From a virus, in UHGV virus genome UHGV-1812412: a DNA stretch of 13,700 nt; one strand, 5' to 3'. Within the stretch, counting starts at the first letter, position 1, and each line of letters opens with the position of its first letter. The translations under genes and the position numbers were made by a program. Shown in pieces: positions 1-12,212 of the stretch. The notes beneath the pieces were generated by a model. The model was not told the origin of the DNA and ran no database searches. It saw nothing but the letters and a program-made list of their open reading frames with translations.

Positions 1-660
1 AAGGCTAAAGAGTTCGGCATGACCGGATCAGAGGTTGGCGAGCTTATCGGGAAACTGGTAGTCGGCTTAGCTGGTCTGAAAGTTATTACTACACTGCTTT
101 CCCCTCTAACCGGATTTGTTTCACTTGTCACCCAACTGATTTCTCTGATAGGCAAGATTCCAGGTCTGGGCAATCTCGTTAAGGGTGCTGGCGGGGCAGT
201 CGCTGGAAGCCCAACAACAGCATTAGCCGCTGGCAGTGCCGCAGGTGTGGGTGTTGGTGTCGCTGGCGCACTGGGCGCTAAGACGGTAGGCGAGAAGTTC
301 AGAGGATGGATGCAAAGCAAGGCTGATCAGTTCGGGGAGTGGGCTAAATCTAAAGGCCTGCTTAGCGATGAACAGGACGCTATGACCAAACCGGGGGCCT
401 ATAACCATAGCTACATCAACAAGGGGGCTTCCTTTAATCCATATCCAACCATTAGCCCGTCACGTCCTACTCCTAGCACTGGTACGGCTATTCAGAATGG
501 TGGCTATCAACCTGCTCAGGTTAATGTGGTGCCTCAAGGTGAGATTTCCGGCAAATGGGAGATAACTATTGATGAGGGGGGAATTGCCAGGGTGATCCAG
601 AAGGAAGTCAGCGATCAGTTGGATTGGAAAGCCACACAGGAATCTAACCAGCTTTTCTAA
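1..660 (+). CDS. Partial CDS (5' end outside window): C-terminal part of a phage tail tape-measure-like protein
   Basis: Frame 1 is open from position 1 (AAG GCT AAA GAG TTC GGC precede the first ATG at 19), stop TAA at 658-660. Product has two hydrophobic helices followed by a Gly/Ala-rich segment (GAGGAVAGSPTTALAAGSAAGVGVGVAGALGA), a pattern typical of tape measure C-terminal regions. Assignment is by composition only. Confidence 0.45.
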   Translation, partial: KAKEFGMTGSEVGELIGKLVVGLAGLKVITTLLSPLTGFVSLVTQLISLIGKIPGLGNLVKGAGGAVAGSPTTALAAGSAAGVGVGVAGALGAKTVGEKFRGWMQSKADQFGEWAKSKGLLSDEQDAMTKPGAYNHSYINKGASFNPYPTISPSRPTPSTGTAIQNGGYQPAQVNVVPQGEISGKWEITIDEGGIARVIQKEVSDQLDWKATQESNQLF

Positions 661-768
661 TGTCCACTCTGTGGATTTGAGTTCTACTCAAACCTGCATA
701 GCAGGCACTAATATTGTGATCTAAATCAATAAGTTAGCCTGACCGGATAAACTCCAGGCAAGAAAAAA

Positions 769-793
769 GCCCCTAAGTGTTAACAAAGGGGCT
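769..793 (-). terminator. Hairpin terminator oriented for minus-strand transcripts
   Basis: GCCCC (769-773) pairs with GGGGC (788-792) around a 14-nt loop; an A-tract at 762-768 on the + strand gives a U-tract after the hairpin on the - strand. Lies about 435 nt downstream of the last minus-strand gene. Confidence 0.45.
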
Positions 794-824
794 CTTCTCC
801 GGTATCCTTTTGATGCGGGGCAAA

Positions 825-870
825 ACCTGCTAACAAAAATCAACCTCTCGCGAGACTAATGTTAGCAGGT
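825..870. repeat. Perfect 11-bp inverted repeat (ACCTGCTAACA / TGTTAGCAGGT) with a 24-nt spacer that contains the palindrome TCTCGCGAGA
   Basis: Read directly: 825-835 is the exact reverse complement of 860-870; nested palindrome at 845-854. Confidence 0.7.
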
Positions 871-1227
871 TGCCGGAAGGTAAGTCAACTCCGGCCTATA
901 AACCTTAAAGCGACTATAAAATCGCCCCGCCAATTGTGATGATCCGACCTTTGAGGCGGGTCCGGTGCCCAGGGGGTGCAGTGATGCACAAACCAGGCAA
1001 CGATAAACAGGCTAACAGTGATAGCGGCGCTCAATCAGCGCACTAAATCCTAACCAGTCCGGGAAAGAGGCTGGCTCTATCGACCGCTCATGCACGGGAC
1101 AATGCATACCTGATAAAGGATTCTCACAAGGGACCAATCGCGAGAAAAGAAGTGGAAAGGGGCTGATTTGTGGTGTATCACTACGGCCTCAAAAGAACAC
1201 TATTGTCTTTTTTAAGCCGGACCGTGA

Positions 1228-1686
1228 TTAGCCTCTCCCCACATTTGACCAATATTTGATTGCACCGATCAAATCATCATAGTGGCGCATGGCATCATTG
1301 AAGCCTTTATAGCTTGCCCATTGTGGGGAAACCTTGTTATTGCTGAATTGCCCACTAATCAGGATAGTCTCCAAAATGTCGGCGTATCGCTTGCCAATTC
1401 GCTTTCTGACGGCCTCAGAGCTCCCACCCTTTACGATTGCATTAATCAGGGCTTTTGTGTGTCTCAGGCTCTCATAGAGCATTGCAGCGTGGGCAGATTC
1501 CATAAAGGAGCGCTTAGGCAGATCACCCCACCCCTCAGAATGAATTGCTGCCAGTGTGGCGTAATTCAGGCCGCTATAGTGCTTTCCGTCATCCCAGCCA
1601 ACCGCTACACCTTCCATCTGTGAGAGCTCTTTATGCAGCTTATCCATCATGCGCTTGTCTATGGTGCAACGGACTTTCGGACTCAT
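1228..1686 (-). CDS. Hypothetical phage-associated protein, 152 aa
   Basis: Intact ORF; its ATG (1686..1684) overlaps the stop of the upstream gene in an ATGA arrangement (translational coupling); GGAGA 7 nt upstream. No family recognised. Confidence 0.55.
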   Translation of the reverse strand: MSPKVRCTIDKRMMDKLHKELSQMEGVAVGWDDGKHYSGLNYATLAAIHSEGWGDLPKRSFMESAHAAMLYESLRHTKALINAIVKGGSSEAVRKRIGKRYADILETILISGQFSNNKVSPQWASYKGFNDAMRHYDDLIGAIKYWSNVGRG

Positions 1687-2513
1687 TTGTTGATCTCCGT
1701 GATGTCATCGAGCAACATGTTGGCCTTATCAATCATCGTTTCGTGGAACTCATTCGACACAACAGACTTATCACCTGCGGCAATCTTTCCAGCAGCCTCT
1801 CCCTGTGCATATTCCCCGCGATGCTTAGCCCTGGTTGATTTCGTAGCAGCGTTGCCAGCGTTGCTACCCTCTTTAGCACTATTAACAGCACCCTTTTGCT
1901 GTGTTTTATTCACCTTCTTACTGTTAGTGAAAACTCCGGCATTTTCGACCATCTTCACCTTGAAGGTGCGGAATTCTTCAAAAGTGCAATCAATAGTGAT
2001 GCAGTCACCAGAGGAAGAGCTACGCTTAACTTCACATTTCGTCATGATGAAGTTCTCAAGGAGTCCGGCATCTTCACTTACCAGGCTAACAAGCTGGCGC
2101 TTGTCTCTCATTTCTATAAGTGCCTGAACAGCGGCGGCAGGGCGCATAGATTCACGGGGATTATCTGGATCAGTGTTCCGGTCGATGTAGTTCTCTTTCC
2201 GGATGATATGAGGGGAAGAGGTAATAATGCCCGTAAAGCTGACAGATTTATCTTTAATGACGGCATGGTCTGACATGGTGGTGCCATCCTCGACCGCATA
2301 GCTCGATTTCTCAACAGGGAACGAATAGCTGACATCAGAGATAGAGTCAAAGAAGATAGCCACATTATCGGTATAGTTGAAGCCATCCATTATATTTTTG
2401 TTTTGTGAATATCCCCCACACATAACAGTGAATGCAGGAGATCTCGACTCAGCTTGTTTTGCAGCTGTCAGAGCATCACTAGCCATAGTAAACATGCCTC
2501 CAAATTGGTCCAC
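1683..2513 (-). CDS. Hypothetical protein, 276 aa, with a Lys/Ala/Gly-rich low-complexity C-terminal region
   Basis: Intact ORF coupled to the downstream gene. The first ATG at 2513 has no usable Shine-Dalgarno; an in-frame ATG at 2486 has GGAGG 10 nt upstream and may be the true start. No family recognised. Confidence 0.55.
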   Translation of the reverse strand: MDQFGGMFTMASDALTAAKQAESRSPAFTVMCGGYSQNKNIMDGFNYTDNVAIFFDSISDVSYSFPVEKSSYAVEDGTTMSDHAVIKDKSVSFTGIITSSPHIIRKENYIDRNTDPDNPRESMRPAAAVQALIEMRDKRQLVSLVSEDAGLLENFIMTKCEVKRSSSSGDCITIDCTFEEFRTFKVKMVENAGVFTNSKKVNKTQQKGAVNSAKEGSNAGNAATKSTRAKHRGEYAQGEAAGKIAAGDKSVVSNEFHETMIDKANMLLDDITEINK

Positions 2514-2645
2514 TTCATGGATTTGGCTAAAGCCAAACCTGCAAAAGATGCAGGCAAAATAGAACTTATCGTTGCCCTGCTTAAAATCTGCAGAAAATAC
2601 AGGGCAGTTATTCGTTAGAATCGCTTATAGCTCTTCCCGAGAGCG

Positions 2646-2897
2646 TTATTTTGCAAAACGGTTATGGGCATTCAGGGCTTTTTTGCGGTCCTGGGCTTGT
2701 TTGCGTGCAATAAAATGTTCGAAAGTCTCGGCCCAGGTGCATTTATTATATTCACGGTACTTATGCATAGCCTGGCGGCTAACGTCATAGCAGGCGGCAA
2801 ATGTGGAGATACGCAGAAATTCCGGCAGATCCTCGTCATCGATATGGATAATATCAAAAGGCACGTCGTCACGGTCGCCGTATAAAACAATTTTCAT
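2646..2897 (-). CDS. Small protein, 83 aa, possible helix-turn-helix DNA-binding protein
   Basis: ORF track starts at a GTG at 2906; the in-frame ATG at 2897 has GAGGTG 6 nt upstream. Segment ISTFAACYDVSRQAMHKY resembles an HTH. Function not established. Confidence 0.5.
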   Translation of the reverse strand: MKIVLYGDRDDVPFDIIHIDDEDLPEFLRISTFAACYDVSRQAMHKYREYNKCTWAETFEHFIARKQAQDRKKALNAHNRFAK

Positions 2898-2931
2898 AAA
2901 AGACACCTCAAAAACTTAAGACGGGGATAAT

Positions 2932-2980
2932 AAAAAAGGGAAGAGGGAAAGACCTATCCCCGATCTCTCACCTCTTCCCT
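2932..2980 (-). terminator. Rho-independent terminator immediately downstream of the capsid-like gene
   Basis: 9-bp stem GGGAAGAGG (2938-2946) / CCTCTTCCC (2971-2979) with a 24-nt loop; A6 at 2932-2937 on + gives a U-tract after the hairpin on the - strand. T-rich on the + side too (2980-2994), so possibly bidirectional. Confidence 0.6.
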
Positions 2981-3010
2981 TTGCTTTTATTTGGCCTTCG
3001 AAGAAGGACC

Positions 3011-4054
3011 TTATTTAGCCTTGGCTTTTGCCAGAGCAGCGGCGGCGGAGTTACTAACACTCACTTTAACCACAACCTCAGGCATCATGTTCATGAAAGC
3101 ATAAGAGGATTCAATGAAGATTTCTCGTTTACCTCTGGACTCTTCCATATACATGAAAGCTTCACGTGCAGCGCCGTTTGCAAGCTTCAGGTTGCGAGCG
3201 CAAGGGCCGAAAAATTGAGTATAAACGCCCACCATATCGCCTAACGCATGTGGCTGGAATTGTGGGACCAGATAAGCAGTATTCTCTGGCAGACTATCCA
3301 TTTGCACCACACGCAGAGCTAAGCCCGGAATGCGGAAGGTCGGGAAGCCCGGCAGAATATCCTCAGGGAACATCAGACCTTTATCGGTAATATTCTGATT
3401 GCCGAACAACAGCACTTTACGGAGCAGTTCATCAGTCTGAATAGCGGCGAACACCTCAGCACGGCAGAACAGGGTGAAACCACGCAGAGCGCGAACGACA
3501 CCACGCTGTTTAACCTTGCTCAGTGCAACCAGGTCCTGCAGTTGTTTGAGAATATCTTGAGCTAGATCCATTTCAGAGGTGGACTGTTCCACGCCCAGCA
3601 GTTCGCACACATTCAGCTCTTTACCCTTGGTGAGGATAATTTTGTTCTCAAAGAGAGCAAGCTGGCGTGCTTCTTCGTGGGTCTGGCGTAAGCCTTCGCC
3701 CAGTTGAATAACACGACGAGCGGTTACAGACTCTAAATTCTCTTCGGAATCTTTGCCCGGAACACGGATACCTTGCCAGTCAGAAGGATAAATAGCACTT
3801 GATGCGGCAGTGAATGCCATATCACCCGTGCCCGTTTCACGCTCATCTGCGGTAATGGTCGCCATCTGTTCACCGTAGCGCGGATACTGACCGAAAGCGG
3901 TTTGTTTCACCTGGCGAACTTTGTCATATTCAAATTTAAAGGTATTGCACAGAGCAGTAGTGTTGAAGATATCCATTGCTGAAATAATCTGGTTATCCAG
4001 CGGGATGTCTTTAATCAAGCCACACAGATCGCGGACTTCGAATTCTTTTTTCAT
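3011..4054 (-). CDS. Putative phage major capsid protein (lambda gpE-like), 347 aa
   Basis: Long ORF; ATG at 4054 with GGAGG 6 nt upstream (ORF track begins at a TTG at 4060). N-terminal MDIFNTTALCNTFKFEYD and C-terminal IESSYAFMNMMPEVVVKVSV resemble lambda gpE (TTAQLL...KFKFD; MIQSAPLMLLADPDEFVSV) as recalled from memory, not search-verified. Followed by a strong terminator, as expected for a highly expressed capsid gene. Confidence 0.55.
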   Translation of the reverse strand: MKKEFEVRDLCGLIKDIPLDNQIISAMDIFNTTALCNTFKFEYDKVRQVKQTAFGQYPRYGEQMATITADERETGTGDMAFTAASSAIYPSDWQGIRVPGKDSEENLESVTARRVIQLGEGLRQTHEEARQLALFENKIILTKGKELNVCELLGVEQSTSEMDLAQDILKQLQDLVALSKVKQRGVVRALRGFTLFCRAEVFAAIQTDELLRKVLLFGNQNITDKGLMFPEDILPGFPTFRIPGLALRVVQMDSLPENTAYLVPQFQPHALGDMVGVYTQFFGPCARNLKLANGAAREAFMYMEESRGKREIFIESSYAFMNMMPEVVVKVSVSNSAAAALAKAKAK

Positions 4055-4065
4055 CTCCAACCTCC

Positions 4066-4401
4066 TTATTGTGCAACACGCAAATCGCCATTGCTGGCAG
4101 CGATAACAGCGGCTAAGCCTTCTTTATCCACGTAGGCCGGATTGATATAACAGCCCTTGTTGGCAACAACGATAAAAGCATCACCAACCTCAGCACGTTC
4201 TACAACCAGCAGCGGAGTTTTATCGGTGTGCGTTTCTTTAACGAAGGTCTCAACCTCGCCAGCCTCAGTCACCACAACAACAGTGCCAGCCGGAATCTCA
4301 GCTTTAACTTTGTTTTTAATTTCAACGTCGCGAATACTAAATTGCTCATCTGCGGCGTATGAAATGATGTGTCCGCGTGTGCGGATAGTCATATCTCTCA
4401 T
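4066..4401 (-). CDS. Putative head decoration / capsid accessory protein, 111 aa
   Basis: ORF ends 11 nt before the capsid start; AGGTGA 6 nt upstream of its ATG. Size and position directly upstream of the capsid gene fit a decoration or cement protein. Function is by context only. Confidence 0.45.
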   Translation of the reverse strand: MRDMTIRTRGHIISYAADEQFSIRDVEIKNKVKAEIPAGTVVVVTEAGEVETFVKETHTDKTPLLVVERAEVGDAFIVVANKGCYINPAYVDKEGLAAVIAASNGDLRVAQ

Positions 4402-5215
4402 TTGATCACCTGCGATTTAAATTAACTCCCCTCAAAGAGTTCCGGTATAACCTCTCAAACCACGACGCTCGGGCCGAAAAGTTATGCCGGAAATCTAAAG
4501 GGAAATTGATACAAGGAGAGGGAGATAGCCCCGCACCGTCCAAGCGGGGGCTATTCCATATGGGGAAAACCAACAACAGTTGGCTGATAGTTCACAGTAT
4601 GGGTTACTAGAGAGCACTATCACGAAAGACACTCCCCCGAATCAGTTCAGGCTGCGGTCACATCAGCGGGGAAATACCTTTCGGGATAGCTACCCACACA
4701 GAAAACCCGCAAAAGAAAACTGTGTGGATAACTAGCCCAATAGGAGAATTAATCGACCACTCAACGATGATCAGGGTAGTGTTATTTATAAGGCGGCACC
4801 GCTACCTGGTCGCCTTTACTTTGGAGGAAAATACGGCAAATCAAGATCTTCTCACAATGATATTGACGCCATACTGTATATTATATCAGTATTTACTCAC
4901 ATTGTCAACACCCTGATTATATAAATTCTAATAATTAGCGTAGTAACGGTATTTTCAGACCTCTATCAATCCCATCAATACGTCACCCCACCCTTTAGAT
5001 GCATACATCCGACCTACTTTGTAGGCTTGGCGTACTGCCAAGGTCGCAGCTATGCGACTCCTATCTATCACCACTTTATAAAGCTTGATAGATATCCGTT
5101 GATCAATATCAATGTTTTCCGGGGATTTACCCGGCTATAGTTCGAATCAAGGAAGGGGAGCATTGATAGCACCCAACCGAGCAAACAAATCAACTTCTCG
5201 CAAAAGGTTATAGAT

Positions 5216-5338
5216 ATGGGTATCAAGAACAGTGCCAGCGCATGGCAAAAGGCCAGGTTTCATCACCCACACATGGTTAAGGCAATTGAGGTGGTTGGAG
5301 TTTTAGCCCTGATGTTAGCTCTGTGTGTGGAGGTGTGA
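5216..5338 (+). CDS. Micro-ORF, 40 aa, hydrophobic C-terminus (MGIKNSASAWQKARFHHPHMVKAIEVVGVLALMLALCVEV)
   Basis: ATG preceded by AAAGG 8 nt upstream inside a 17-nt leader motif that is duplicated before the membrane protein gene; its stop is 1 nt before the next ATG. Confidence 0.25.
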   Translation: MGIKNSASAWQKARFHHPHMVKAIEVVGVLALMLALCVEV

Positions 5339-5339
5339 G

Positions 5340-5420
5340 ATGGGCAAAGGAGGCAAAGCATTTTTAATAGGTCTGGCAGTCTTAGATTTTGTATTAATCA
5401 TCATTGAGCGGAGTTTATGA
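5340..5420 (+). CDS. Micro-ORF, 26 aa, single hydrophobic helix (MGKGGKAFLIGLAVLDFVLIIIERSL)
   Basis: ATG at 5340 with GGAGG 6 nt upstream; its stop overlaps the ATG of the following HTH gene (ATGA at 5417-5420). Confidence 0.25.
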   Translation: MGKGGKAFLIGLAVLDFVLIIIERSL

Positions 5421-5677
5421 CGGGAACTAAAGATATTAAGAGACTGAGGGAAGAGCTGATAGCTGAAATTAAAGCGAAGGCAAAGCAAATGGAGATAGCC
5501 GCACAAATGGATGTAGCGGAACAGATGTACAAGATGGTTGAGGAGGGAACGCCACGACAGGTTATAGCAAAAACCTTCGGTGTGGGGATCGCCACCGTGC
5601 ACAGAAGGCTGAAAGCCTATGCCGACTACCACAATATCGAGAGAAAGGAGGATGGGAGATTTAAGAAGAATAAATAG
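5417..5677 (+). CDS. Small DNA-binding protein with resolvase/invertase-type helix-turn-helix, 86 aa
   Basis: Segment TPRQVIAKTFGVGIATVHRRLK matches the pattern of the Hin/Gin-type C-terminal HTH (PRQ-LA-FG-G-ST--R, recalled from memory); N-terminal half predicted coiled coil. No catalytic recombinase domain present. Confidence 0.65.
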   Translation: MTGTKDIKRLREELIAEIKAKAKQMEIAAQMDVAEQMYKMVEEGTPRQVIAKTFGVGIATVHRRLKAYADYHNIERKEDGRFKKNK

Positions 5678-5769
5678 TGTGAACAGTCCAATAGGTTAAG
5701 CTCTGGCTCATAGCCCTCGCCTCGAGGGTGTTATTAACTAAATTCAACTTCTCGCAAAGGGGTACCATT

Positions 5770-6291
5770 ATGTTATTTCAGAAAGATAAAGAATCAGAAA
5801 ACAAAAAGCTTTTTAAAGCAATAGTAAAAATGTTCTTTCAGTACACTGCAGCGTTTTTGATAGCCGGGCCTTGGTTAATGGCTATCTGTTTTTACCCTGC
5901 TACCTTGTTTATTGGCAGTAGCAAGTTCGGCGATGGCCCGTTTCATGTGGATATTGGTTTTATAGATTCTCTCCTGATCCGTCCTATAAATGCTGTTCTC
6001 AATGCTTTCTACTTCCCCACTAGTCTAGAGGGGTGGTCGGTAACCTGGGGTGTTTTAGGCTTAGCATATGTATATTGGTTGGTTGGCTTTTTGTGGGGTG
6101 CAATCTGTGCTCTCCTCGATATTGATACAGGATCAAGCCGTAGGAGTGGTGGTAATAATAGCGGAGCGGGTGTATATGCACACGTAGGTACCAGAGGGGT
6201 AAGTATCACCGCAGGTACCCGATTCGCTGGCGGCTGGCTGAGCATAGGCAAACGCGGCGTTAGTTGGAGAAAAAGCAAAAAACTGTTCTGA
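5770..6291 (+). CDS. Membrane protein, 173 aa from ATG 5770, with at least two hydrophobic helices and a Gly-rich basic tail containing a repeated G-x-R-G-V-S motif
   Basis: ORF track starts at a GTG at 5728; the ATG at 5770 has AAGGGG 7 nt upstream. Hydrophobic helices FFQYTAAFLIAGPWLMAICFYPATLFI and WGVLGLAYVYWLVGFLWGAICALL; tail has GTRGVS and GKRGVS. Terminator directly downstream. Confidence 0.6.
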   Translation: MLFQKDKESENKKLFKAIVKMFFQYTAAFLIAGPWLMAICFYPATLFIGSSKFGDGPFHVDIGFIDSLLIRPINAVLNAFYFPTSLEGWSVTWGVLGLAYVYWLVGFLWGAICALLDIDTGSSRRSGGNNSGAGVYAHVGTRGVSITAGTRFAGGWLSIGKRGVSWRKSKKLF

Positions 6292-6298
6292 CCTACCA

Positions 6299-6322
6299 GG
6301 GGGGCCATCACGGCCCCTTTTT
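6299..6322 (+). terminator. Rho-independent terminator after the membrane protein gene
   Basis: GGGGCC (6301-6306) / GGCCCC (6312-6317) stem with 5-nt loop, followed by TTTTT (6318-6322). Confidence 0.7.
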
Positions 6323-7636
6323 ATTTATCCCTCAATTAACCCCTATTTATCCCCTATTTAATGCCTATTTATTGATTTAATCCGTTTTATGCCACAACCG
6401 CCCGGTTGACAGAGTAAGAGAGAGGGTGTAACCCTTTTTCGTAATACCAATAAAATCAATAGCTTAGCTCAATTGGCCTTTTCTCTGTTTTTGTCAAATT
6501 TAACATACCCTCAAAAACTGCAAAATCTGGCTGCAAGATTATCTGCAGCTGGATTTCTTACACCTCAATTTGTGGTATCACCCTGACTAGTTTGTGCATA
6601 AAATGAACAGTTTTTAACATTTCCTCCTCACCTGGTAACCACACAAAAAGCTAAAAACGAGGCACAGATAATCTTAGAGGCCTGTTTTCTTGTTATCACT
6701 CTGGGAACGTCGTAGAAGTGATTTTGATGAAAGACGGCCTACCCTATTACACCCCCATTTTTTGTTATCACAATTGCATCCTGTGCGGTATATGACTATG
6801 TGCTGAAAGCGGTCTCAGGTGTTGGTGTCAGAAATATCCATTAGCGGTATTTGAGCTTATGGGTAACTCGTCTGAGGTGCCAGGCAGGCGCTCCCCTACC
6901 TCCCCTTTTTCTTCTAACAATTCTCAAATATCACACCACTGCCCACCACGTTGCTATTATGTTAATTCTTAAGCTTTGCTGTATGTTGTGCACATTATTT
7001 ATTCAGATGCATGTACGTAAATTCTGTGCCCACTGATCATGATTTTTAAATCAGATTTTGTAGTGCGCTTTATTAGTGTAGATAAGATCTATTATGTTAA
7101 ATGCAATTTTCCCAACCCTTCAAATCAATGACTTACATGTAAGCATGCACTAACACCCCACACAGCACATTAGACGTGTAGATGTCTATATCCCACATTT
7201 TTGATTGTTTTGTAGTCATTCCCCTGATCATTTAACCAGTATAGTTTGCTCTCTGCAGACCACAAAATCGGAATTTACATCTGATTAACATAATCTGTTA
7301 GCATGATCACCATTACCCACACAACAATAACCCCATGCAAGCCTCTTCAGGCAATTTATCGGCGTGTTGGTGTGAACAGTCTTTCATGTTCTTTATGTAT
7401 TCATGACTGCAAGGAATGTATTCATTGGCCTGTGTGGGGGAAGGATGGACTGCCTCAGGGGCCATACTTATGATGCCCGGTCAACATAGCTGTTGATAAA
7501 ATCAATGGGTGTTGATCTGCGTATTTCCCACACATGAGAGGAAATCAAAGCAAAGAGAGAGGAGAGAGGTTTGTTAGTCAAAATAGGTCAATTGACGGCT
7601 AATACAGAGTAAAAAATCAGATGCAATCACTCCCCC

Positions 7637-7819
7637 ACCTGTTGGGATTTCCCTCACCTGTATAAGAATACAGTCATACTTTCCCGTTATACGGTCATAC
7701 ACATGATGGAATAACCTGTTGGAATTTCCCACAGGTTCAACCATACATAAGCATTAACCTGTTGGAATTTCCTACTACTACCTGTCGGTATTTCCCACAG
7801 GTACCTGTTGGAATTTCCC
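7637..7819. repeat. Iteron array: five direct copies of a 17-mer ACCTGTYGGWATTTCCC
   Basis: Copies at 7637-7653, 7714-7730, 7757-7772, 7780-7796, 7803-7819; the last three are exactly 23 bp apart. Two copies are followed by the inverse ACAGGT. Partial copies of the ATTTCCCACA core at 7522-7534 and 8321-8333. Confidence 0.75.
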
Positions 7820-7911
7820 ACACTAATAGATAAAGAGAATAGATTAATAAAAAGATACCCCCCTAACCCCCCAGGGGGAATGGGGAGGGATCAGAGAGTG
7901 GGGAAGGTTTT

Positions 7912-8014
7912 CTAGATGTACGTAATTGGTACACTTAAAGGTGGATAATATGAGGCTAGATGTACGTAATTGGTACACTTAGAATATTCTAGATGTACGT
8001 AATTGGTACACTTA
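7912..8014. repeat. Three identical 26-bp direct repeats CTAGATGTACGTAATTGGTACACTTA, each with an internal dyad TGTAC-N7-GTACA
   Basis: Copies at 7912-7937, 7956-7981, 7989-8014; start-to-start spacing 44 and 33 bp (multiples of about 11, same helical face). A near DnaA box GGTGGATAA lies at 7940-7948. Confidence 0.8.
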
Positions 8015-8339
8015 AATCACATAAGTTATTGAGTTTATTAGAAAAAGTGATTCACCTATATATACTACTGATTCGCCTCCGCTCATCATTAGTATGGTGT
8101 AACTGATTCATGCTTCGCTTACGCTCACATTCATCTACTTACACCCCCTTATCTGAATTGAACATTCCCGTCCAATCCAGCTAAGAGAATTGATTGAACA
8201 TTACCTAACATCCGTTAGCTAACATTCTAATCAATTAACTACTTAATCACTTCCACACCTTCCGGTGGTGCCAAGTGTCCTGGCATGGTGGGAAAAGATT
8301 CTGCCGTTTTAGGTAGAATTGATTTCCCACAAATAGTAA

Positions 8340-8660
8340 GTGTCGGCCCTTCAATGTCACTCTCCTATGAGGGGGAGAGATGACGGGCCTCCTGTGTGGG
8401 TGAGTATCGGAGCAGTCTGTGAAGTATGAGCAGGCTGTGAGATACGCTACTGTATATCTGCGTAGAACAGCCTCCGCTGTTTACGCTCTTTGTGTGGGTC
8501 CGGCGAATGCGACAGCATGAGGCCCACATGTGGACCGCTGCCGAAAGCTTGCCAGCGCCGGAAGGAGGCGGCAAAGAGTCTCCCGCGCGGTTGTAGGTCC
8601 GCGCCGGACTTTAACTTACAGTTAAACCCTTCGGGCTTGTGCGGGTGCACGCACACATAT
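8340..8660. other. GC-rich, hairpin-dense non-coding island, candidate structured RNA or DNA processing site
   Basis: Sharp rise in GC relative to AT-rich flanks. Local stems include TCTCC/GGAGA (8361-8379), GCGCGG/CCGCGC (8585-8604), TTTAAC/GTTAAA (8609-8625) and GTGCG/CGCAC (8639-8654). The only ORFs are two overlapping Arg/Pro/Ser-rich minus-strand frames without RBS. Confidence 0.3.
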
Positions 8661-8843
8661 ATATAAAGGATACACTCATAAATCGAAAATAAGCGCGATT
8701 TTAGCGCCTACAGCGAGATAAACTATACTCCCTAGTGTAATTGCATTACCTGATGCTTAAATCGCGTTGTAGGGCCTCTCATGAGGTTTGAGTTTAACAC
8801 CCTCCAAAGTTTTAACAAAAAGTGCTCTCCCTCCATTGTGGGC

Positions 8844-9013
8844 CATTGACAATCTTATTGCATAAATGCTATAAGTTATTCTGATTTTGACACGGTAGGG
8901 GCCATTAATAATGCTTACCCCTTTGCTGTGGACTTGCTTGTGTCTGCTGTGCAGGCTATGGCACCTATAGCTCGCCTAAATGATAATGATTCCTATTGAC
9001 AATTGGTTGTCAA
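8844..9013 (+). promoter_or_regulatory. Operator-like 9-bp palindromes ATTGACAAT overlapping -35-like TTGACA hexamers; candidate tandem promoters
   Basis: ATTGACAAT at 8844-8852 and 8995-9003; the second is part of an 18-bp dyad TTGACAA-TTGG-TTGTCAA (8996-9013). Possible promoters: TTGACA 8846-8851 + 18 nt + TATAAG 8870-8875; TTGACA 8996-9001 + 17 nt + TAAGAT 9019-9024. Confidence 0.4.
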
Positions 9014-9059
9014 TATGATAAGATTATAGATAGTGGGAGAAACAGATCCGGAGGTCAAC

Positions 9060-9209
9060 GTGGAACTGAGCGACGCTATAGCGATCATCAACCTGGCTGT
9101 ACTGTGGTGCGGTGTTGCCTACATAGCCGGAGTAACTGCAATCGACAACCTTGAAGAAAAAATGATAGATAAATACAAAAAGATTGTTGACAATCTCGCA
9201 AATAGCTGA
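9060..9209 (+). CDS. Small hydrophobic protein, 49 aa, GTG start
   Basis: GGAGG at 9050-9054, 5 nt before the GTG at 9060; product MELSDAIAIINLAVLWCGVAYIAGVTAIDNLEEKMIDKYKKIVDNLANS has one predicted transmembrane helix. Not in the supplied ORF track (below the length cutoff). Confidence 0.35.
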   Translation: MELSDAIAIINLAVLWCGVAYIAGVTAIDNLEEKMIDKYKKIVDNLANS

Positions 9210-9215
9210 TAAAAT
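9182..9215 (+). promoter_or_regulatory. Sigma70-type promoter with an operator dyad over the -35
   Basis: -35 TTGACA (9187-9192), 17-nt spacer, -10 TAAAAT (9210-9215); dyad GATTGT-TG-ACAATC (9182-9195) overlaps the -35 and shares the TTGACAAT core with the upstream palindromes. Confidence 0.5.
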
Positions 9216-9263
9216 ATAAATCATAGGGTAATTCTCAGCATGTGAATTTTCCTTAAACAGACT

Positions 9264-9295
9264 AGCGGGGCTTGTCTTGAGTCCCGTTTCTTTTT
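9264..9295 (+). terminator. Promoter-proximal hairpin plus U-tract (attenuator or 3' end of a short RNA)
   Basis: CGGGGC (9266-9271) pairs with GTCCCG (9281-9286), with one G-U pair, around a 9-nt loop, followed by TTTCTTTTT (9287-9295). Sits about 50 nt after the predicted start site and 44 nt before the next ATG. Confidence 0.5.
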
Positions 9296-9338
9296 AAACC
9301 TACATCGCACAGGCGGTGAGCCAACAGGAGATTGAATC

Positions 9339-9548
9339 ATGGCTAAAACTGGACCGATCAGCCAGCTGGTAGACTGGACTACTGACGAAATCGTCGAGAA
9401 CGTGCTTAAAGGTAACTTTCGAAAAACTTCTGTTTATGCATTTATTCGAAAACACAAAGGAGAATATCCACACATTGAAGCGGCAATAGAAAAACTTAAC
9501 TTTATTAAACTTGAGCGCCAGCTGGAAAGATATAAACACCTACTTTGA
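9339..9548 (+). CDS. Small protein, 69 aa, possibly DNA-binding
   Basis: AGGAG at 9326-9330, 8 nt before the ATG; first gene after the promoter/attenuator. No family recognised. Confidence 0.6.
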   Translation: MAKTGPISQLVDWTTDEIVENVLKGNFRKTSVYAFIRKHKGEYPHIEAAIEKLNFIKLERQLERYKHLL

Positions 9549-9584
9549 TAAAAGGTAACCGTAACCCGGTAAGAGGTAAACATT

Positions 9585-10454
9585 ATGAATATTAAGTCTG
9601 TTTTTAATATAACTTTAAATGATGATCCTAGTATCCTTTTGCTGCCTATGCTCATAAACAAATCTGGACTATTAAAAAAAGGCGACGCAAGGGATATTTA
9701 TATTTATATGTGGAATATTTACTATCTCAACGCTAAAAAAGAGGCCGCCAAGGTGTTCAGTAAGAAGACTAAAGGAAGAAGCCTCAGTCAGGATATGAAA
9801 GATTCCATAAGAAAAGAATGTTTTGCAATTAATGATAAAGATTCCTGTGTGGAAATCTCTTATAAGGATATAGAGGAAAGAGTAGGAATATTACGACCAC
9901 ACGCAGTAAGGGCAATTAAAAAGCTGGAATCTGAAGGAATTATCACCTGCCTTAAAAAAGGCAATAAGCATAACCCTTATGCATCATGGCAAATTAATGT
10001 CGGAATCTTTGAAATGATGGAAAGAGTAGGGATTGAAAACCTCATTGGGTGGGATCTCTTAAAACCATATTGGAAGAAAGAACAGGAAGCAGCCGGAAGA
10101 GGGGAGGGGGATAAAGCCCCGCAAGAAGCCCCAAAACAGGCCGCACAGCAAGCTAAAAAGGCCGAGGTGGTGCAGTTCCCTTCTACGAAAGATAAGAGCG
10201 TCAGAATCGAGCGTAGCTCTCATCCTGAAAGTGTGACAACGTCACCTGTTAAGACAAACAATGAAGGGCCAGTGAAAGAGATACCCAAAATTATAGACAT
10301 TTCTTCTTTTATGGCAGATGAGGAAGATATGCAAGATGAGTGGTGGACACCTCCAGAAAATAATGATTATGGTTATGATCCTTATGGCTATGATGAAGAT
10401 GAATATAGCCCGTTTGAAGATGAATATATAAATGATTCCGCTATCCCTTATTAA
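9585..10454 (+). CDS. Winged-helix DNA-binding protein, 289 aa, with a Lys/Ala/Gln-rich linker and an acidic, aromatic C-terminal tail; candidate replication initiator or regulator
   Basis: AAGAGGT 7 nt before the ATG. Segment ISYKDIEERVGILRPHAVRAIKKLESEGIITC has the classic winged-helix pattern seen in replication initiators and MarR-like regulators; C-terminus DEEDMQDEWWTPPENNDYGYDPYGYDEDEYSPFEDEY. Function inferred. Confidence 0.75.
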   Translation: MNIKSVFNITLNDDPSILLLPMLINKSGLLKKGDARDIYIYMWNIYYLNAKKEAAKVFSKKTKGRSLSQDMKDSIRKECFAINDKDSCVEISYKDIEERVGILRPHAVRAIKKLESEGIITCLKKGNKHNPYASWQINVGIFEMMERVGIENLIGWDLLKPYWKKEQEAAGRGEGDKAPQEAPKQAAQQAKKAEVVQFPSTKDKSVRIERSSHPESVTTSPVKTNNEGPVKEIPKIIDISSFMADEEDMQDEWWTPPENNDYGYDPYGYDEDEYSPFEDEYINDSAIPY

Positions 10455-10542
10455 TACCCCCAAATAAACTAAATAAACTAAACATAGAATTACTAGAACT
10501 AGATTGATTGCCCTGATCTTTTAAACGTTCGGAGAATTAATC

Positions 10543-11028
10543 ATGTTCAAATCTGATCTTTCTGATTCCCAATTTGAAAAACTGGTAGCACTGCAGAAAT
10601 ATCTCCCCAGTGATGATCAACCAACACGACAGGCCAAACACTTATTAGTCGAGGGCTTTACCCCTGAATTCGTAGCGGAATATACAGGCGTTAAACTTGA
10701 GAAAGTCCAAAAACTATATAATGAGTCCTGGAATCCACGGTGTCGAGTTCCCCTCAGTGTCTATAACGAAATAGATAGAGATAAAAATGTCTTCGAAGAT
10801 CGCCGCCGCAAATCTCTTTTAATGTGGAATTGCGGGATGAATATTGAAGAGATAGCAAAAGAATTAAAAGTAACCTGCTTTCATATTTGGGGCTTGTTGA
10901 GTGAAATCCTGCCACGTAAGGAGCTTAATCAACGTTTGCCTAAGCCCGGTAGTCGTGCTTATCGCGAATTTATATTCATCTACCGCCGCCATAGCAATAA
11001 AGTCCGGAAAGCAATGCAGCGCAAATAG
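10543..11028 (+). CDS. Hypothetical protein, 161 aa, with two HTH-like segments and a basic C-terminus
   Basis: GGAGA 7 nt before the ATG; HTH-like segments FTPEFVAEYTGVKLEKVQKLY and MNIEEIAKELKVTCFHIWGLL. Could be a small terminase subunit-like or regulatory protein; not resolved. Confidence 0.7.
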   Translation: MFKSDLSDSQFEKLVALQKYLPSDDQPTRQAKHLLVEGFTPEFVAEYTGVKLEKVQKLYNESWNPRCRVPLSVYNEIDRDKNVFEDRRRKSLLMWNCGMNIEEIAKELKVTCFHIWGLLSEILPRKELNQRLPKPGSRAYREFIFIYRRHSNKVRKAMQRK

Positions 11029-11116
11029 CTTATAGCCTTCACATATGCCGCAAGTTATTGATTCTGCCGTCCGGTAAATATGCCGGATGGCTCATATAAA
11101 TTTTAAGGAATTCCAA

Positions 11117-11560
11117 ATGTCTCAAATCGCTAAATTACTATCCCAGGTTATCAAAGCTATCGACGCTGAAGATTCAAAAGTTCGCCAGGATCTTTTAGAT
11201 GGCAAGTTTACCAATACTCTGGCATTTACCCGTGACAAAGAGCACTTCTTAGAGCACAAACATCCCGCCTTTGTTGAATGCAAGTCCGCTAATGGTGATG
11301 TTTTCTATGTCGATTTGGTGGTTATGGCTATGCGCCTGTGGATGATTCAGGACCTTATGCGCCAACACGGTGATGATCCTCTTATCAGCATGTGGAACAG
11401 CGCCCAGGATGGCTTTGTGATTGCTGCCTTATCCAAATCCATGATTGAGGCAGAAGGCGCAAGCCTTCAAAACATGGCAGATCTCTTTGAAATAAGCGTA
11501 GGAATGATGCAGACCATGCTGCAGGCGGTGAAGCCTCTCAAGCTGGTTAACCTTGAATAA
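11117..11560 (+). CDS. Hypothetical protein, 147 aa
   Basis: ORF track begins at an ATG at 11087 with no RBS; the in-frame ATG at 11117 has AAGGAA 6 nt upstream. Followed by a terminator. Confidence 0.65.
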   Translation: MSQIAKLLSQVIKAIDAEDSKVRQDLLDGKFTNTLAFTRDKEHFLEHKHPAFVECKSANGDVFYVDLVVMAMRLWMIQDLMRQHGDDPLISMWNSAQDGFVIAALSKSMIEAEGASLQNMADLFEISVGMMQTMLQAVKPLKLVNLE

Positions 11561-11571
11561 TTGATTAATAA

Positions 11572-11606
11572 GCACCCTCAAAAAATGGGGGTGCCTTTAT
11601 TTATCT
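11572..11606 (+). terminator. Rho-independent terminator
   Basis: GCACCC (11572-11577) / GGGTGC (11589-11594) stem followed by the T-rich run CTTTATTTATCTT. Confidence 0.6.
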
Positions 11607-11638
11607 TACTTTTCACGTTTATCTAAAAGGATATGCCT

Positions 11639-12022
11639 ATGAATATTGAAGAAATGATAGTTGAATTCGATGATGGTGATTTCCTGGAAGATGGGGAGTT
11701 TAAATACTCCCGTTTTAAACAGGCGTTATTTAGCAGCGATGATAAACCCCACGTTAGTGATCTAAATGACGATGATTTATGTCGCTGGGTATGCACCCGC
11801 TTATATGAGGATGGAAAATATACAGGCCAAAACTTTCCAAATCTCTATTTCAAAGCACAAACATTTGAGGAAGGGCAAAGAGTGAAAAACCTGGTCGATA
11901 AAATGCTGTCAGCCGGATATTTGCATAAAGAATTATTAAATCCTAAAGCTGAAAGCAAGCGCCATTATATTTTTGTGTGGACTATTGGCGATAAGTGTCC
12001 ACTAAGACGCAAAGGCAAATGA
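11639..12022 (+). CDS. Acidic protein, 127 aa, in the position of a tail assembly chaperone
   Basis: ATG at 11639 has AAGGA 8 nt upstream (the ATG at 11633 is too close to it). Product is strongly acidic at the N-terminus; sits two genes upstream of the tape measure gene, as gpG-like chaperones do. Inferred from position and composition. Confidence 0.55.
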   Translation: MNIEEMIVEFDDGDFLEDGEFKYSRFKQALFSSDDKPHVSDLNDDDLCRWVCTRLYEDGKYTGQNFPNLYFKAQTFEEGQRVKNLVDKMLSAGYLHKELLNPKAESKRHYIFVWTIGDKCPLRRKGK

Positions 12023-12023
12023 T

Positions 12024-12209
12024 ATGAATACCTACGAAAAGATTTATCAAAAATTAAAAAGTGATAACAATGCTCCCGTCATCAAGGGCGGGGCTTCTTC
12101 CTCTGGTGACCTCTCAATCGAAGAGCTTGCGGAGAAATATAATATTGATAAAGAGGCCCTGAAAAGGGCTATTTCATTATCAAAATCTTTAAGACAGGGC
12201 GAGGTGTAA
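12024..12209 (+). CDS. Small protein, 61 aa, immediately upstream of the tape measure gene
   Basis: ATG 1 nt after the stop of the preceding gene (TGA-t-ATG); ends 3 nt before the tape measure ATG. Could be independent or the extension part of a frameshifted chaperone. Confidence 0.45.
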   Translation: MNTYEKIYQKLKSDNNAPVIKGGASSSGDLSIEELAEKYNIDKEALKRAISLSKSLRQGEV

Positions 12210-12212
12210 GAG

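What the first reader, a model, noticed from the sequence alone, without database searches (positions are those of the whole stretch)
4402..5215. One-kilobase structured non-coding region upstream of the capsid operon, with a consensus DnaA box
No ORF has a usable RBS here, but there are serial hairpins: 4527-4552; 4694-4727 with an 8-bp stem whose 3' arm overlaps a perfect TGTGGATAA at 4723-4731; and back-to-back stems at 5026-5042, 5043-5060 and 5069-5098. A single perfect 9-mer is expected roughly 0.1 times by chance in this window, so the DnaA box is only suggestive. The region could hold the late promoter and leader, an attachment-site remnant, or small RNAs.
Basis: seen in the sequence. 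Interest (0 to 1): 0.45.

Follow-up and report, generated by a model that had tools for sequence, protein, structure and literature searches.

The report
Promoter and structured leader RNA before capsid genes
The ORF-free stretch is not a replication origin but the control region of a small E. coli plasmid that looks like a phage satellite: a very strong promoter fires towards the capsid genes through a roughly 470-base folded leader RNA that matches no known RNA family, and the DnaA box is just one arm of one of its helices.

Summary
The hairpins and the perfect DnaA box are at the stated coordinates, and no conserved ORF lies there. The signal is on the minus strand, the strand of the capsid genes. 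A 12/12 sigma-70 promoter with an extended -10 (4908-4880, minus) is kept in all 25 related E. coli elements. Its -10 context, TGATA(T/A)AATA, matches the published late-gene motif of rV5-like phages, the likely helpers. The roughly 470-nt transcript down to the first capsid-operon gene folds far better than shuffles and better than its antisense. Two adjacent long helices (4683-4738 and 4617-4689) are kept in a diverged lineage through compensatory changes. A covariance model trained on one lineage scores the other at 45 bits, against 17 bits for sequence alone. The hairpin at 4521-4557 corresponds to a textbook intrinsic terminator in that second lineage. The DnaA box is the 5' arm of a helix. 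It is lost in relatives while the pairing is kept. Iterons, a DnaA-like box and a helper-homologous segment lie elsewhere (7637-8016 and 8333-8589). The stems at 5026-5058 are dispensable. Best reading: a helper-type late promoter plus a new structured, terminator-bearing leader RNA that gates capsid gene expression. The mechanism is inferred, not shown.

The parts
4880..4908 (-). P_left: sigma-70 promoter TTGACA-17-TATAAT with TG extended -10. The -10 context TGATATAATA is of the rV5 late-motif type. Inferred transcription start about 4873-4875.
   Evidence: 12/12 match, the best in the window. Present in all 25 related loci. Motif TGNTAAAATA occurs 6 times upstream of structural genes of an rV5-like phage against 0.68 expected. 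Published rV5 late motif is TggTAaAAtA (PMC3606486).
4926..4935 (-). Conserved AT-rich block (TTCTAATAAT on the plus strand) 18-27 nt upstream of the -35; a possible UP element.
   Evidence: Invariant between lineages A and B in an otherwise diverged spacer. The role is inferred.
4832..4873 (-). H1: 5'-terminal hairpin of the transcript. Its 5' arm is hypervariable and its 3' arm (GAUUUGCCGUA) is constant.
   Evidence: Four sequence variants occur within lineage A. It is not alignable with lineage B.
4790..4816 (-). H2: short hairpin with the invariant loop CCAGGUAGCGG.
   Evidence: One G-C to C-G compensatory change between lineages.
4767..4789 (-). Block A: the most conserved unpaired stretch, AUAAAUAACACU(A/G)CCC.
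   Evidence: It is the only blastn-detectable island of the leader between the lineages.
4683..4738 (-). H3: long hairpin. Its 5' arm contains UUAUCCACA, which is the DnaA box at 4723-4731 read on the other strand. The apical UUUUGCGG loop is conserved.
   Evidence: -34.4 kcal/mol, z -7.0 on the minus strand against -21.1 on the plus strand. 12 core pairs, 98.8% paired, 3 double and 5 single compatible changes. The A' changes C-G to U-G and A-U to G-U destroy the box but keep the pairs.
4617..4689 (-). H4: long hairpin directly abutting H3.
   Evidence: 22 pairs, 99.7% paired, 8 pairs changed on both sides and 3 on one side. 16/16 pairs are kept on the plain MAFFT alignment. A model trained on lineage A only scores lineage B at 45 bits with structure and 17 bits without.
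4585..4622 (-). H5: hairpin in lineage A. A counterpart in lineage B is uncertain.
4566..4584 (-). H6: small hairpin CCAAC-UGUU-GUUGG followed by UUUU.
   Evidence: A-U to G-C compensatory change within lineage A, 8 against 9 sequences. Absent from lineage B.
4521..4557 (-). It is the positional homologue of an intrinsic terminator in lineage B. In the window it has no U tract.
   Evidence: -21.3 kcal/mol. Lineage B has a 15-bp stem followed by T7-10. 8 pairs are 100% kept, with 1 double and 2 single changes. The terminator scan does not flag it in the window.
4489..4526 (-). C-rich, G-poor tract after H7 (13 C and 2 G in 38 nt); a possible Rho entry site.
   Evidence: Read from the sequence. 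The role is inferred.
4440..4493 (-). I3: long hairpin just upstream of the ribosome-binding region. Relatives L009 and L023-25 carry a roughly 70-nt insertion within this hairpin's span.
4399..4411 (-). Shine-Dalgarno AGGTGAT (4405-4411) and ATG (4399-4401) of the first capsid-operon gene (111 aa), followed by the major capsid protein gene.
   Evidence: The capsid protein matches phrog_29 at 9e-22 and is 25% identical to the rV5-like capsid protein.
4723..4731 (+). Perfect DnaA 9-mer TGTGGATAA; judged incidental.
5026..5058 (.). Two back-to-back 6-bp GC hairpins in the spacer between the divergent units; dispensable.
   Evidence: Deleted in L005, L008, L009, L010, L018 and L020.
5063..5093 (.). 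Inverted repeat ATCTATCA-N15-TGATAGAT; a candidate operator. A third exact TGATAGAT lies at 9163-9170, 17 nt upstream of the second strong promoter.
   Evidence: Partly conserved in lineage B. The role is inferred.
5099..5215 (+). Conserved upstream region of the rightward unit (40-aa and 26-aa peptides, then the 86-aa HTH protein). It holds the palindrome TTGATCAA (5099-5106), the stem CCGGG/CCCGG (5119-5134), TATAGT (5136-5141) and the conserved 5'-UTR blocks 5148-5159 and 5185-5208.
   Evidence: No good -35 was found, so the rightward promoter is not identified.

Best explanation
Region 4402-5215 is the divergent control region of a 13.7-kb circular E. coli replicon that looks like a plasmid-borne satellite of rV5-like phages. 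On the minus strand, the strongest promoter of the element fires towards the capsid operon. It has a consensus -35, a 17-bp spacer and an extended consensus -10 of the same TGnTA(A/T)AATA type that precedes the helper family's structural genes. The first roughly 470 nt of that transcript (about 4873 down to 4402) are an untranslated, highly structured leader RNA. Its parts are a 5' hairpin, a small hairpin with an invariant loop, an invariant single-stranded block, two long abutting helices (H3 and H4) and a GC-rich hairpin (H7), followed by a long hairpin next to the ribosome-binding site. H7 is a canonical intrinsic terminator in the sister lineage and is followed by a C-rich tract here. The inferred mechanism is that the promoter is active with host RNA polymerase alone. 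The leader then gates how much transcription or translation reaches the capsid genes, through termination at H7 or the C-rich tract, possibly modulated by the H3-H4 domain or by a helper-encoded factor. In this way structural proteins would be made mainly when a helper infects. Shown here: the promoter match and its conservation, the strand-specific fold, the conservation of H3 and H4 through covariation, and the terminator in lineage B. Inferred: the transcription start, termination in lineage A, and any response to a helper. The DnaA box is simply part of the 5' arm of H3.
For: The promoter is 12/12 with a TG extension, the best in the window, and is present in all related loci of two lineages whose capsid genes are only 72% identical at the DNA level. 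The -10 context matches the rV5 late-gene motif TggTAaAAtA (PMC3606486). TGNTAAAATA occurs 6 times against 0.68 expected in an rV5-like structural module, always on the coding strand in intergenic DNA. The minus-strand RNA folds to -168.8 kcal/mol (z -5.5) against -135.5 (z -2.6) for the plus strand, and lineage B shows the same asymmetry, -162.9 against -136.6. The consensus fold of one sequence from each lineage has z -5.8 against column shuffles in the sense direction and -3.1 in antisense. For H3 and H4, a covariance model built from lineage A only finds lineage B full length at 45 bits, against 17 bits and a partial match for the sequence-only model. On the fitted alignment, 34 pairs are 99.4% paired, with 11 pairs changed on both sides against 2-4 in slid controls. 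On the unfitted MAFFT alignment, H4 keeps 16/16 pairs with 2 double and 3 single changes. H7 corresponds to a 15-bp stem followed by a T tract in lineage B. The origin and helper-homology candidates lie elsewhere: iterons at 7637-7825, repeats and a DnaA-like box at 7910-8016, and 86% identity to 119 rV5-like phages at 8333-8589.
Against: There are no transcript data, so the start site and the 3' ends are inferred. Only two deep lineages plus one sub-lineage exist, so each covariation is one or two events and R-scape-type statistics are impossible. Transferring the whole minimum-energy fold of the window onto lineage B does no better than slid controls. H1, H5 and H6 are not conserved across lineages. 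In the window's own lineage H7 lacks a U tract and is not flagged as a terminator, so termination there would need Rho or would be weak. No alternative antiterminator pairing could be defined. The predicted partner of the Shine-Dalgarno sequence differs from variant to variant. No conserved operator sits at the promoter, and no antiterminator protein was recognised among the element's proteins. The helper relationship itself is inferred from homology.
Confidence: 0.55

Rival explanations
1. The product that matters is a discrete, abundant non-coding RNA of about 350-375 nt, running from the start site to H7. It would act in trans, for example in immunity or copy control of the element, as a sponge or guide against helper transcripts, or as a partner of a helper or satellite protein. 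The capsid genes downstream would then be incidental.
For: The consensus promoter has no conserved operator. Lineage B has a canonical terminator that would release a roughly 375-nt RNA. Invariant loops and single-stranded blocks (CCAGGUAGCGG, AUAAAUAACACU, UUUUGCGG) suggest contacts with another molecule. The 5' end is hypervariable within lineage A, as in specificity-determining antisense systems. There is no Rfam family.
Against: No convincing complementary target was found in the element: the best duplex, -37 kcal/mol, is not an outlier among about 2700 windows. The region has no similarity to phage genomes. In the window's lineage there is no clear 3' end. No other promoter was found for the capsid genes between H7 and the start codon.
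Confidence: 0.2
2. The H3-H4 double hairpin is a cis-acting, protein-independent antiterminator of the HK022 put type. It would load onto the RNA polymerase that made it and carry it through H7 and later terminators, so that only transcripts from this promoter express the capsid operon.
For: The layout fits: promoter, then two directly abutting conserved stem-loops, then a terminator, then the genes. The element has no recognisable antiterminator protein.
Against: H3 and H4 together span 128 nt, about twice the size I recall for put RNA. No put sequence or model was available for comparison. The scheme would give constitutive capsid expression, which is odd for a satellite.
Confidence: 0.1
3. 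The region acts at the DNA level, as a DnaA-dependent origin or DnaA-titrating site, a packaging signal, or a remnant of an attachment site.
For: There is one perfect DnaA 9-mer. DnaA-like 9-mers with up to one mismatch are enriched across the window, 14 against 3.7. The region has many inverted repeats.
Against: The box is lost in lineage B and in A' while the RNA pairing is kept through G-U pairs, which are mismatches on the other strand. Folding is strand-asymmetric. Iterons and a DnaA-like box lie at 7637-8016. The only DNA shared with rV5-like phages is 8333-8589. There is no integrase, no tRNA and no chromosomal copy.
Confidence: 0.03
4. The region is a neutral spacer or a decayed gene, with fortuitous hairpins behind an ordinary promoter.
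For: Much of the region diverges fast and carries many indels. The whole-fold transfer test is negative.
Against: The structure model gains 28 bits over sequence alone in an independent lineage. The alifold z-score is -5.8. Conserved islands stand in a background where even the capsid gene is only 72% identical. The region has no protein similarity to helper genes.
Confidence: 0.07

Closest known systems
Lambda late leader (pR' promoter, 6S RNA, tR' terminator, read through by Q)
   Same: A strong constitutive promoter is followed by an untranslated leader that ends in a terminator ahead of the head genes. A second strong promoter in the window (9187-9215) is likewise followed by a terminator at 9264-9288.
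   Different: No Q-like gene was recognised in the element. The leader is 2-2.5 times longer and much more structured. No Q-binding or pause element could be defined. The presumed helper is a virulent rV5-like myovirus, not a lambdoid phage.
HK022 put RNAs (cis-acting antiterminator RNA)
   Same: Two adjacent conserved stem-loops sit between a promoter and a terminator, and no protein factor is evident.
   Different: The size is about 128 nt, against roughly 65-70 nt as I recall for put. No sequence relation was tested, and the function is not shown.
Satellite P4 immunity leader (CI RNA) and the P1/P7/N15 C4-type antisense RNAs
   Same: A satellite or plasmid-prophage uses a constitutive promoter and a structured leader RNA to cause or relieve premature termination.
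   Different: No hit to any Rfam family, which would include a C4 or CI antisense model if the library holds one, even at E up to 5. No internal repeated complementary boxes were found. Here the RNA precedes structural genes, not replication or anti-repressor genes.
Putative late promoters of rV5-like phages (TggTAaAAtA; PMC3606486)
   Same: The extended -10 context is the same, TGATA(T/A)AATA. One phage copy even shares TTGACAAT-N12-TGGTAAAAT.
   Different: The phage promoters sit 25-40 nt from their start codons. The satellite inserts a 470-nt structured leader and always has a consensus -35.
oriC-type or plasmid origins with DnaA boxes
   Same: One perfect TTATCCACA.
   Different: The box is single, not conserved, has no AT-rich unwinding element or iterons next to it, and lies inside a transcribed RNA helix. 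The real iteron cluster is at 7637-8016.

Membership tests
DnaA-dependent replication origin | Cluster of several DnaA boxes | tested here: not met
   One perfect box at 4723-4731. The nearest one-mismatch box is at 4124-4132, inside a coding gene.
DnaA-dependent replication origin | Adjacent iterons or an AT-rich unwinding element | tested here: not met
   No tandem repeats in 4300-5500. Five 23-nt iterons and three 30-nt repeats lie at 7637-8016.
DnaA-dependent replication origin | Box conserved in relatives | tested here: not met
   ATATCTACC in lineage B and TTATCCATG in L023-25.
Sigma-70 promoter with extended -10 | TTGACA, 17-bp spacer, TGnTATAAT | tested here: met
   12/12 with TG. Conserved in 25 loci.
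Sigma-70 promoter with extended -10 | Mapped transcription start | not testable with these tools
   No transcript data are available.
rV5-type late-gene promoter motif (TggTAaAAtA) | Match to the motif | tested here: met
   TGATATAATA in lineage A and TGATAAAATA in lineage B. The phage motif is and PMC3606486.
rV5-type late-gene promoter motif (TggTAaAAtA) | Activation during rV5-like infection | not testable with these tools
   Needs an infection experiment.
Terminator-containing leader (transcription attenuator) | GC-rich hairpin followed by a U tract between promoter and gene | tested here: inconclusive
   Met in lineage B: a 15-bp stem plus T7-10. In the window the homologous hairpin has no U tract.
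Terminator-containing leader (transcription attenuator) | Mutually exclusive antiterminator pairing | tested here: inconclusive
   Repeated CUAUC and GAUAG segments allow alternative pairings, but none is consistently conserved.
Conserved structured RNA | Helices kept by compensatory change in independent sequences | tested here: met
   Met for H3 and H4. Weaker for H2 and H7. Not met for H1, H5 and H6 across lineages.
Any Rfam 15 family (including known leaders, ribozymes and phage antisense RNAs) | Score at or above the gathering threshold | tested here: not met
   0 hits in the window. Only chance-level hits at E up to 5 in both lineages.
Lambda-type Q antitermination leader | Q antiterminator gene in the element | tested here: not met
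   No antiterminator family among the proteins scanned with Pfam, PHROGs and NCBIfam.
Lambda-type Q antitermination leader | Q-binding element and sigma-dependent promoter-proximal pause | not testable with these tools
   Needs biochemistry, and the early transcribed region is not conserved.
Prophage attachment-site remnant | Integrase or tRNA nearby, or chromosomal copies | tested here: not met
   No tRNA. No integrase annotated or detected. 0 chromosomal places in 5426 E. coli genomes.
Packaging signal shared with a helper phage | DNA similarity to the helper genome | tested here: not met
   No phage match for 4402-5215. The only shared DNA is 8333-8589.
HK022 put-type antiterminator RNA | Two-stem RNA that makes RNA polymerase terminator-resistant | not testable with these tools
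   No model or reference sequence is at hand. Only the layout resembles it.

The most novel reading that the evidence does not exclude
The 128-nt H3-H4 double helix, together with the invariant loop and block upstream of it, is the core of a new functional RNA class made by a previously undescribed plasmid-borne satellite of virulent rV5-like phages. It would be either a factor-independent antiterminator, or a sensor or decoy RNA that detects helper infection and switches on production of the satellite's own capsid.
Probability: 0.25. Interest if true: 0.75.

Novelty: new member of a known kind. Interest (0 to 1): 0.5.

Why it matters
The work turns an apparent origin-like DnaA box into a testable regulatory RNA. 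It gives exact coordinates for a promoter, a roughly 470-nt leader and two covarying helices that probably decide when a satellite makes its own capsid protein. The surrounding element is the larger prize. It is a 13-14 kb E. coli plasmid with its own capsid, tape-measure and tail-tube-initiator genes, promoters of rV5 late type, and a 250-bp segment shared with rV5-like phages. It appears to be an undescribed satellite of a virulent phage family that is used in phage typing and therapy. If the leader responds to infection, it would be a compact, portable switch triggered by phage infection.

Tried and rejected
1. Searches for more distant relatives failed. The capsid protein and the 111-aa protein have no homologues below 66-81% identity among 5.8 billion proteins. 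Capsid-protein scans of viral and genome contigs gave nothing. DNA-pattern scans found nothing in viral or genome contigs and only four near-identical metagenome contigs. Two further patterns gave one chance hit inside an unrelated coding region, and none.

2. Long-range masking of the Shine-Dalgarno sequence looked attractive by eye. However, the most probable partner changes between variants, so the idea was dropped.

3. Block A contains TATAAATA, the T4 late-promoter consensus. That motif is not enriched in the rV5-like structural module and never occurs on its coding strand there, so this reading was rejected.

4. A search for trans targets of the conserved loops within the element gave no outlier.

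5. Transferring the whole minimum-energy fold between lineages did no better than slid controls. Only local helices are conserved.

6. One viral-contig scan used a spacer one base too long and is uninformative.

7. The degraded-gene idea fails: tblastn with 19 helper proteins gives no hit in the region, and close relatives carry frame-breaking indels.

8. Literature searches for such a satellite found nothing.

Full report
CONTEXT

The 13,700-base window is essentially one complete small circular replicon. It aligns end to end with the 13,697-bp plasmid pE275a_13. The finding region matches only seven E. coli plasmids of 13.3-13.7 kb, plus one 39.6-kb apparent trimer, among 5,426 complete E. 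coli genomes. It never matches a chromosome.

Public assemblies hold many more 13-14 kb contigs, all from E. coli. They fall into lineage A (which includes the window), a sub-lineage A' (L023-L025), and lineage B (L003, L012-L017).

The two operons are as follows:
- On the minus strand: a 111-aa protein (4066-4401), a major capsid protein (3011-4060; phrog_29 at 9e-22), a Dit-like tail-tube initiator and a tail-completion protein.
- On the plus strand: two tiny hydrophobic peptides, an 86-aa HTH protein, an O-like replication initiator, and a tail module ending in a tape-measure protein.

The tail-tube initiator (48-51%), the tail-completion protein (45%), the tape measure (27%) and the capsid protein (25%) have their nearest phage relatives in rV5-like Vequintavirinae. 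No portal, terminase or protease was seen. I therefore read the element as a probable plasmid-borne satellite of rV5-like phages. That reading is an inference, and I found no paper describing such an element.

CHECKING THE OBSERVATION

The perfect DnaA 9-mer is at 4723-4731 and is the only perfect one in the window. No ORF in the region is conserved. Close relatives differ by indels that are not multiples of three, and 19 helper-phage proteins give no tblastn hit there. The right edge, 5215, is the base before a 40-aa ORF.

The 8-bp stem at 4694-4727 is the core of a 23-bp helix on the minus strand. It scores -34.4 kcal/mol (z -7.0) there, against -21.1 on the plus strand, because many of its pairs are G-U.

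THE PROMOTER

The best sigma-70 match in the whole window lies on the minus strand at 4908-4880. It reads TTGACA, a 17-bp spacer, then TATAAT preceded by TG, a 12/12 match. Every related locus has it. This holds although the two lineages are so diverged that the capsid gene is only 72% identical in DNA and most of the intergenic region cannot be aligned by blastn.

Its -10 context is TGATATAATA, or TGATAAAATA in lineage B. This matches the motif TggTAaAAtA that the rV5 genome paper found upstream of late genes (PMC3606486). In the structural module of the rV5-like phage JohannBauhin, TGNTAAAATA occurs six times against 0.68 expected. All six are on the coding strand, in intergenic DNA just upstream of structural genes. 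One copy even shares the form TTGACAAT-N12-TGGTAAAAT.

The window has exactly two such promoters. The second, at 9187-9215 on the plus strand, is followed by an intrinsic terminator at 9264-9288.

THE LEADER RNA

From the inferred start (about 4873) to the start codon at 4401 there are about 470 untranslated bases.
- The minus-strand RNA folds to -168.8 kcal/mol (z -5.5) and the plus strand to -135.5 (z -2.6).
- Lineage B shows the same asymmetry, -162.9 against -136.6.
- A consensus fold of one sequence from each lineage is far more stable than column-shuffled alignments in the sense direction (z -5.8, 0 of 100 shuffles as good). It is less so in antisense (z -3.1).

The strongest test is independent of lineage B. 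I built a covariance model of the two abutting helices H3 (4683-4738) and H4 (4617-4689) from lineage A sequences only. It finds lineage B full length at 45 bits (E about 1e-9). A sequence-only model from the same alignment reaches 17 bits over half the length.

Pair counts agree with this:
- On the model-fitted alignment, 34 pairs are 99.4% paired. Eleven pairs are changed on both sides, against 2-4 in slid controls. This alignment leans towards the structure.
- On the unfitted MAFFT alignment, H4 keeps 16 of 16 pairs, with two double and three single compatible changes.
- Smaller support exists for H2 (one G-C to C-G change), for H6 (one A-U to G-C change within lineage A) and for H7 (one double and two single changes).

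LIMITS OF THE STRUCTURAL EVIDENCE

Transferring the entire minimum-energy fold of the window to lineage B does no better than slid controls. H1, H5 and H6 are not conserved across lineages. With only two or three independent lineages, each covariation is a single event.

TERMINATOR

In the window's lineage the stem is GC-rich (-21.3 kcal/mol) but is followed by a C-rich, G-poor tract (13 C and 2 G in 38 nt) instead of U residues. It is not flagged as a terminator. Termination there would have to be weak or Rho-dependent, and this is inference.

THE DnaA BOX

On the RNA strand the box reads UUAUCCACA and forms the 5' arm of H3.
- In lineage B it reads ATATCTACC (three mismatches).
- In sub-lineage A' it reads TTATCCATG. 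The two changes there turn C-G into U-G and A-U into G-U, so the box is destroyed while the RNA helix is preserved.
- The element's real origin candidate is elsewhere. It has five 23-nt iterons at 7637-7825, three 30-nt repeats at 7910-8016, and the DnaA-like box TTATCCACC between them.
- The only DNA shared with phages is 8333-8589, about 86% identical to 119 rV5-like genomes. The finding region has no phage match.

Origin, packaging-site and attachment-site readings of the finding region are therefore poorly supported.

THE REST OF THE REGION

The two GC stems at 5026-5058 are absent from six of fourteen lineage-A relatives and are replaced by unrelated sequence in lineage B, so they are dispensable.

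Between 5063 and 5215 lie conserved elements that belong to the rightward unit:
- an inverted repeat ATCTATCA-N15-TGATAGAT, whose half-site recurs 17 nt upstream of the second strong promoter;
- a TTGATCAA palindrome;
- a conserved CCGGG/CCCGG stem;
- a strongly conserved 5' UTR.

I could not identify a convincing rightward promoter.

HOW IT MOST LIKELY WORKS

Shown: the element's strongest promoter, of helper late type, points into a conserved, strand-specific, structured leader that carries a terminator in one lineage.

Inferred: the promoter is active with host polymerase. The leader limits what reaches the capsid genes, by termination at H7 or the C-rich tract, with the H3-H4 domain as the regulatory or sensing part. 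Infection by the helper increases read-through.

Rivals that the data do not exclude are a discrete trans-acting RNA and a put-like self-acting antiterminator.

COMPARISON WITH KNOWN SYSTEMS

The layout is closest to the lambda pR'-6S-tR' late leader, to the HK022 put RNAs and to the P4 CI-RNA leader. No Rfam family matches, no Q-like protein was found, and the leader is longer and more structured than these. The helper's own late promoters sit 25-40 nt from their genes, so the long leader is specific to the satellite.

VERDICT

The region is a promoter plus a new structured leader RNA, a known kind of element. It is of moderate interest in itself, and more so because of the unusual satellite-like plasmid it controls.

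Noticed in passing
window 1-13700 (whole): The window is a complete 13.7-kb circular E. coli replicon. It carries its own capsid protein, tape measure, tail-tube initiator and tail-completion genes, distantly related to those of rV5-like phages (25-51% identity), plus an O-like Rep. No portal, terminase or protease was seen. It looks like an undescribed plasmid-borne satellite of a virulent phage family. Only E. coli carries it (7 of 5426 complete genomes), in two lineages.
   Followed up: partly
window 8333-8589: A GC-rich, ORF-free segment is about 86% identical to 119 Vequintavirinae genomes, for example JohannBauhin 132126-132330, which is unannotated or carries only tiny ORFs. Two modules are also conserved in lineage B. 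There is no Rfam hit. It is a candidate shared packaging or recognition site, or a shared non-coding RNA.
   Followed up: partly
window 7637-8016: Five 23-nt iterons (ACCTGTTGGAATTTCCCACAGGT) and three 30-nt repeats (TTCTAGATGTACGTAATTGGTACACTTAAA) flank a DnaA-like box, TTATCCACC, at 7940-7948. This is the likely true origin. It sits inside a 2.9-kb ORF-poor stretch (6292-9186).
   Followed up: partly
window 9187-9288: A second consensus extended -10 promoter (TTGACAAT-N12-TGATAAAAT) is followed about 50 nt later by an 11-bp-stem intrinsic terminator, ahead of the 69-aa and Rep operon. This is the same promoter-then-terminator logic as in the finding region. The promoter overlaps the 3' end of a 49-aa ORF (9060-9209). 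Further TTGACAAT sites lie at 8846 and 8996.
   Followed up: partly
L009, L023-L025 (leader 3' part) and window 8606-8645: A roughly 70-nt insertion in the leader of some relatives resembles the window sequence TTTAACTTACAGTTAAACCCTTCGGGCTTGTG. This suggests a small repeated or mobile module within the element.
   Followed up: no
window 5216-5420: Two translationally coupled tiny ORFs (40 aa and 26 aa, both hydrophobic) precede the 86-aa HTH gene and overlap it in ATGA fashion. Some relatives carry an extra copy of the ribosome-binding module.
   Followed up: no
window, whole: DnaA-box-like 9-mers with up to one mismatch occur 14 times against 3.7 expected (0 of 200 shuffles reach this). This may reflect the CCACA/TGTGG-rich composition. 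It remains unexplained.
   Followed up: no
window 5063-5093 and 9163-9170: The exact 8-mer TGATAGAT occurs three times: twice as an inverted repeat in the finding region and once 17 nt upstream of the second strong promoter. It is a possible shared operator for the HTH protein.
   Followed up: no
NZ_CP043822.1 (L002): This 39.6-kb 'plasmid' holds three copies of the element (three places matched), some with truncated genes. It is a multimer or an assembly artefact.
   Followed up: no
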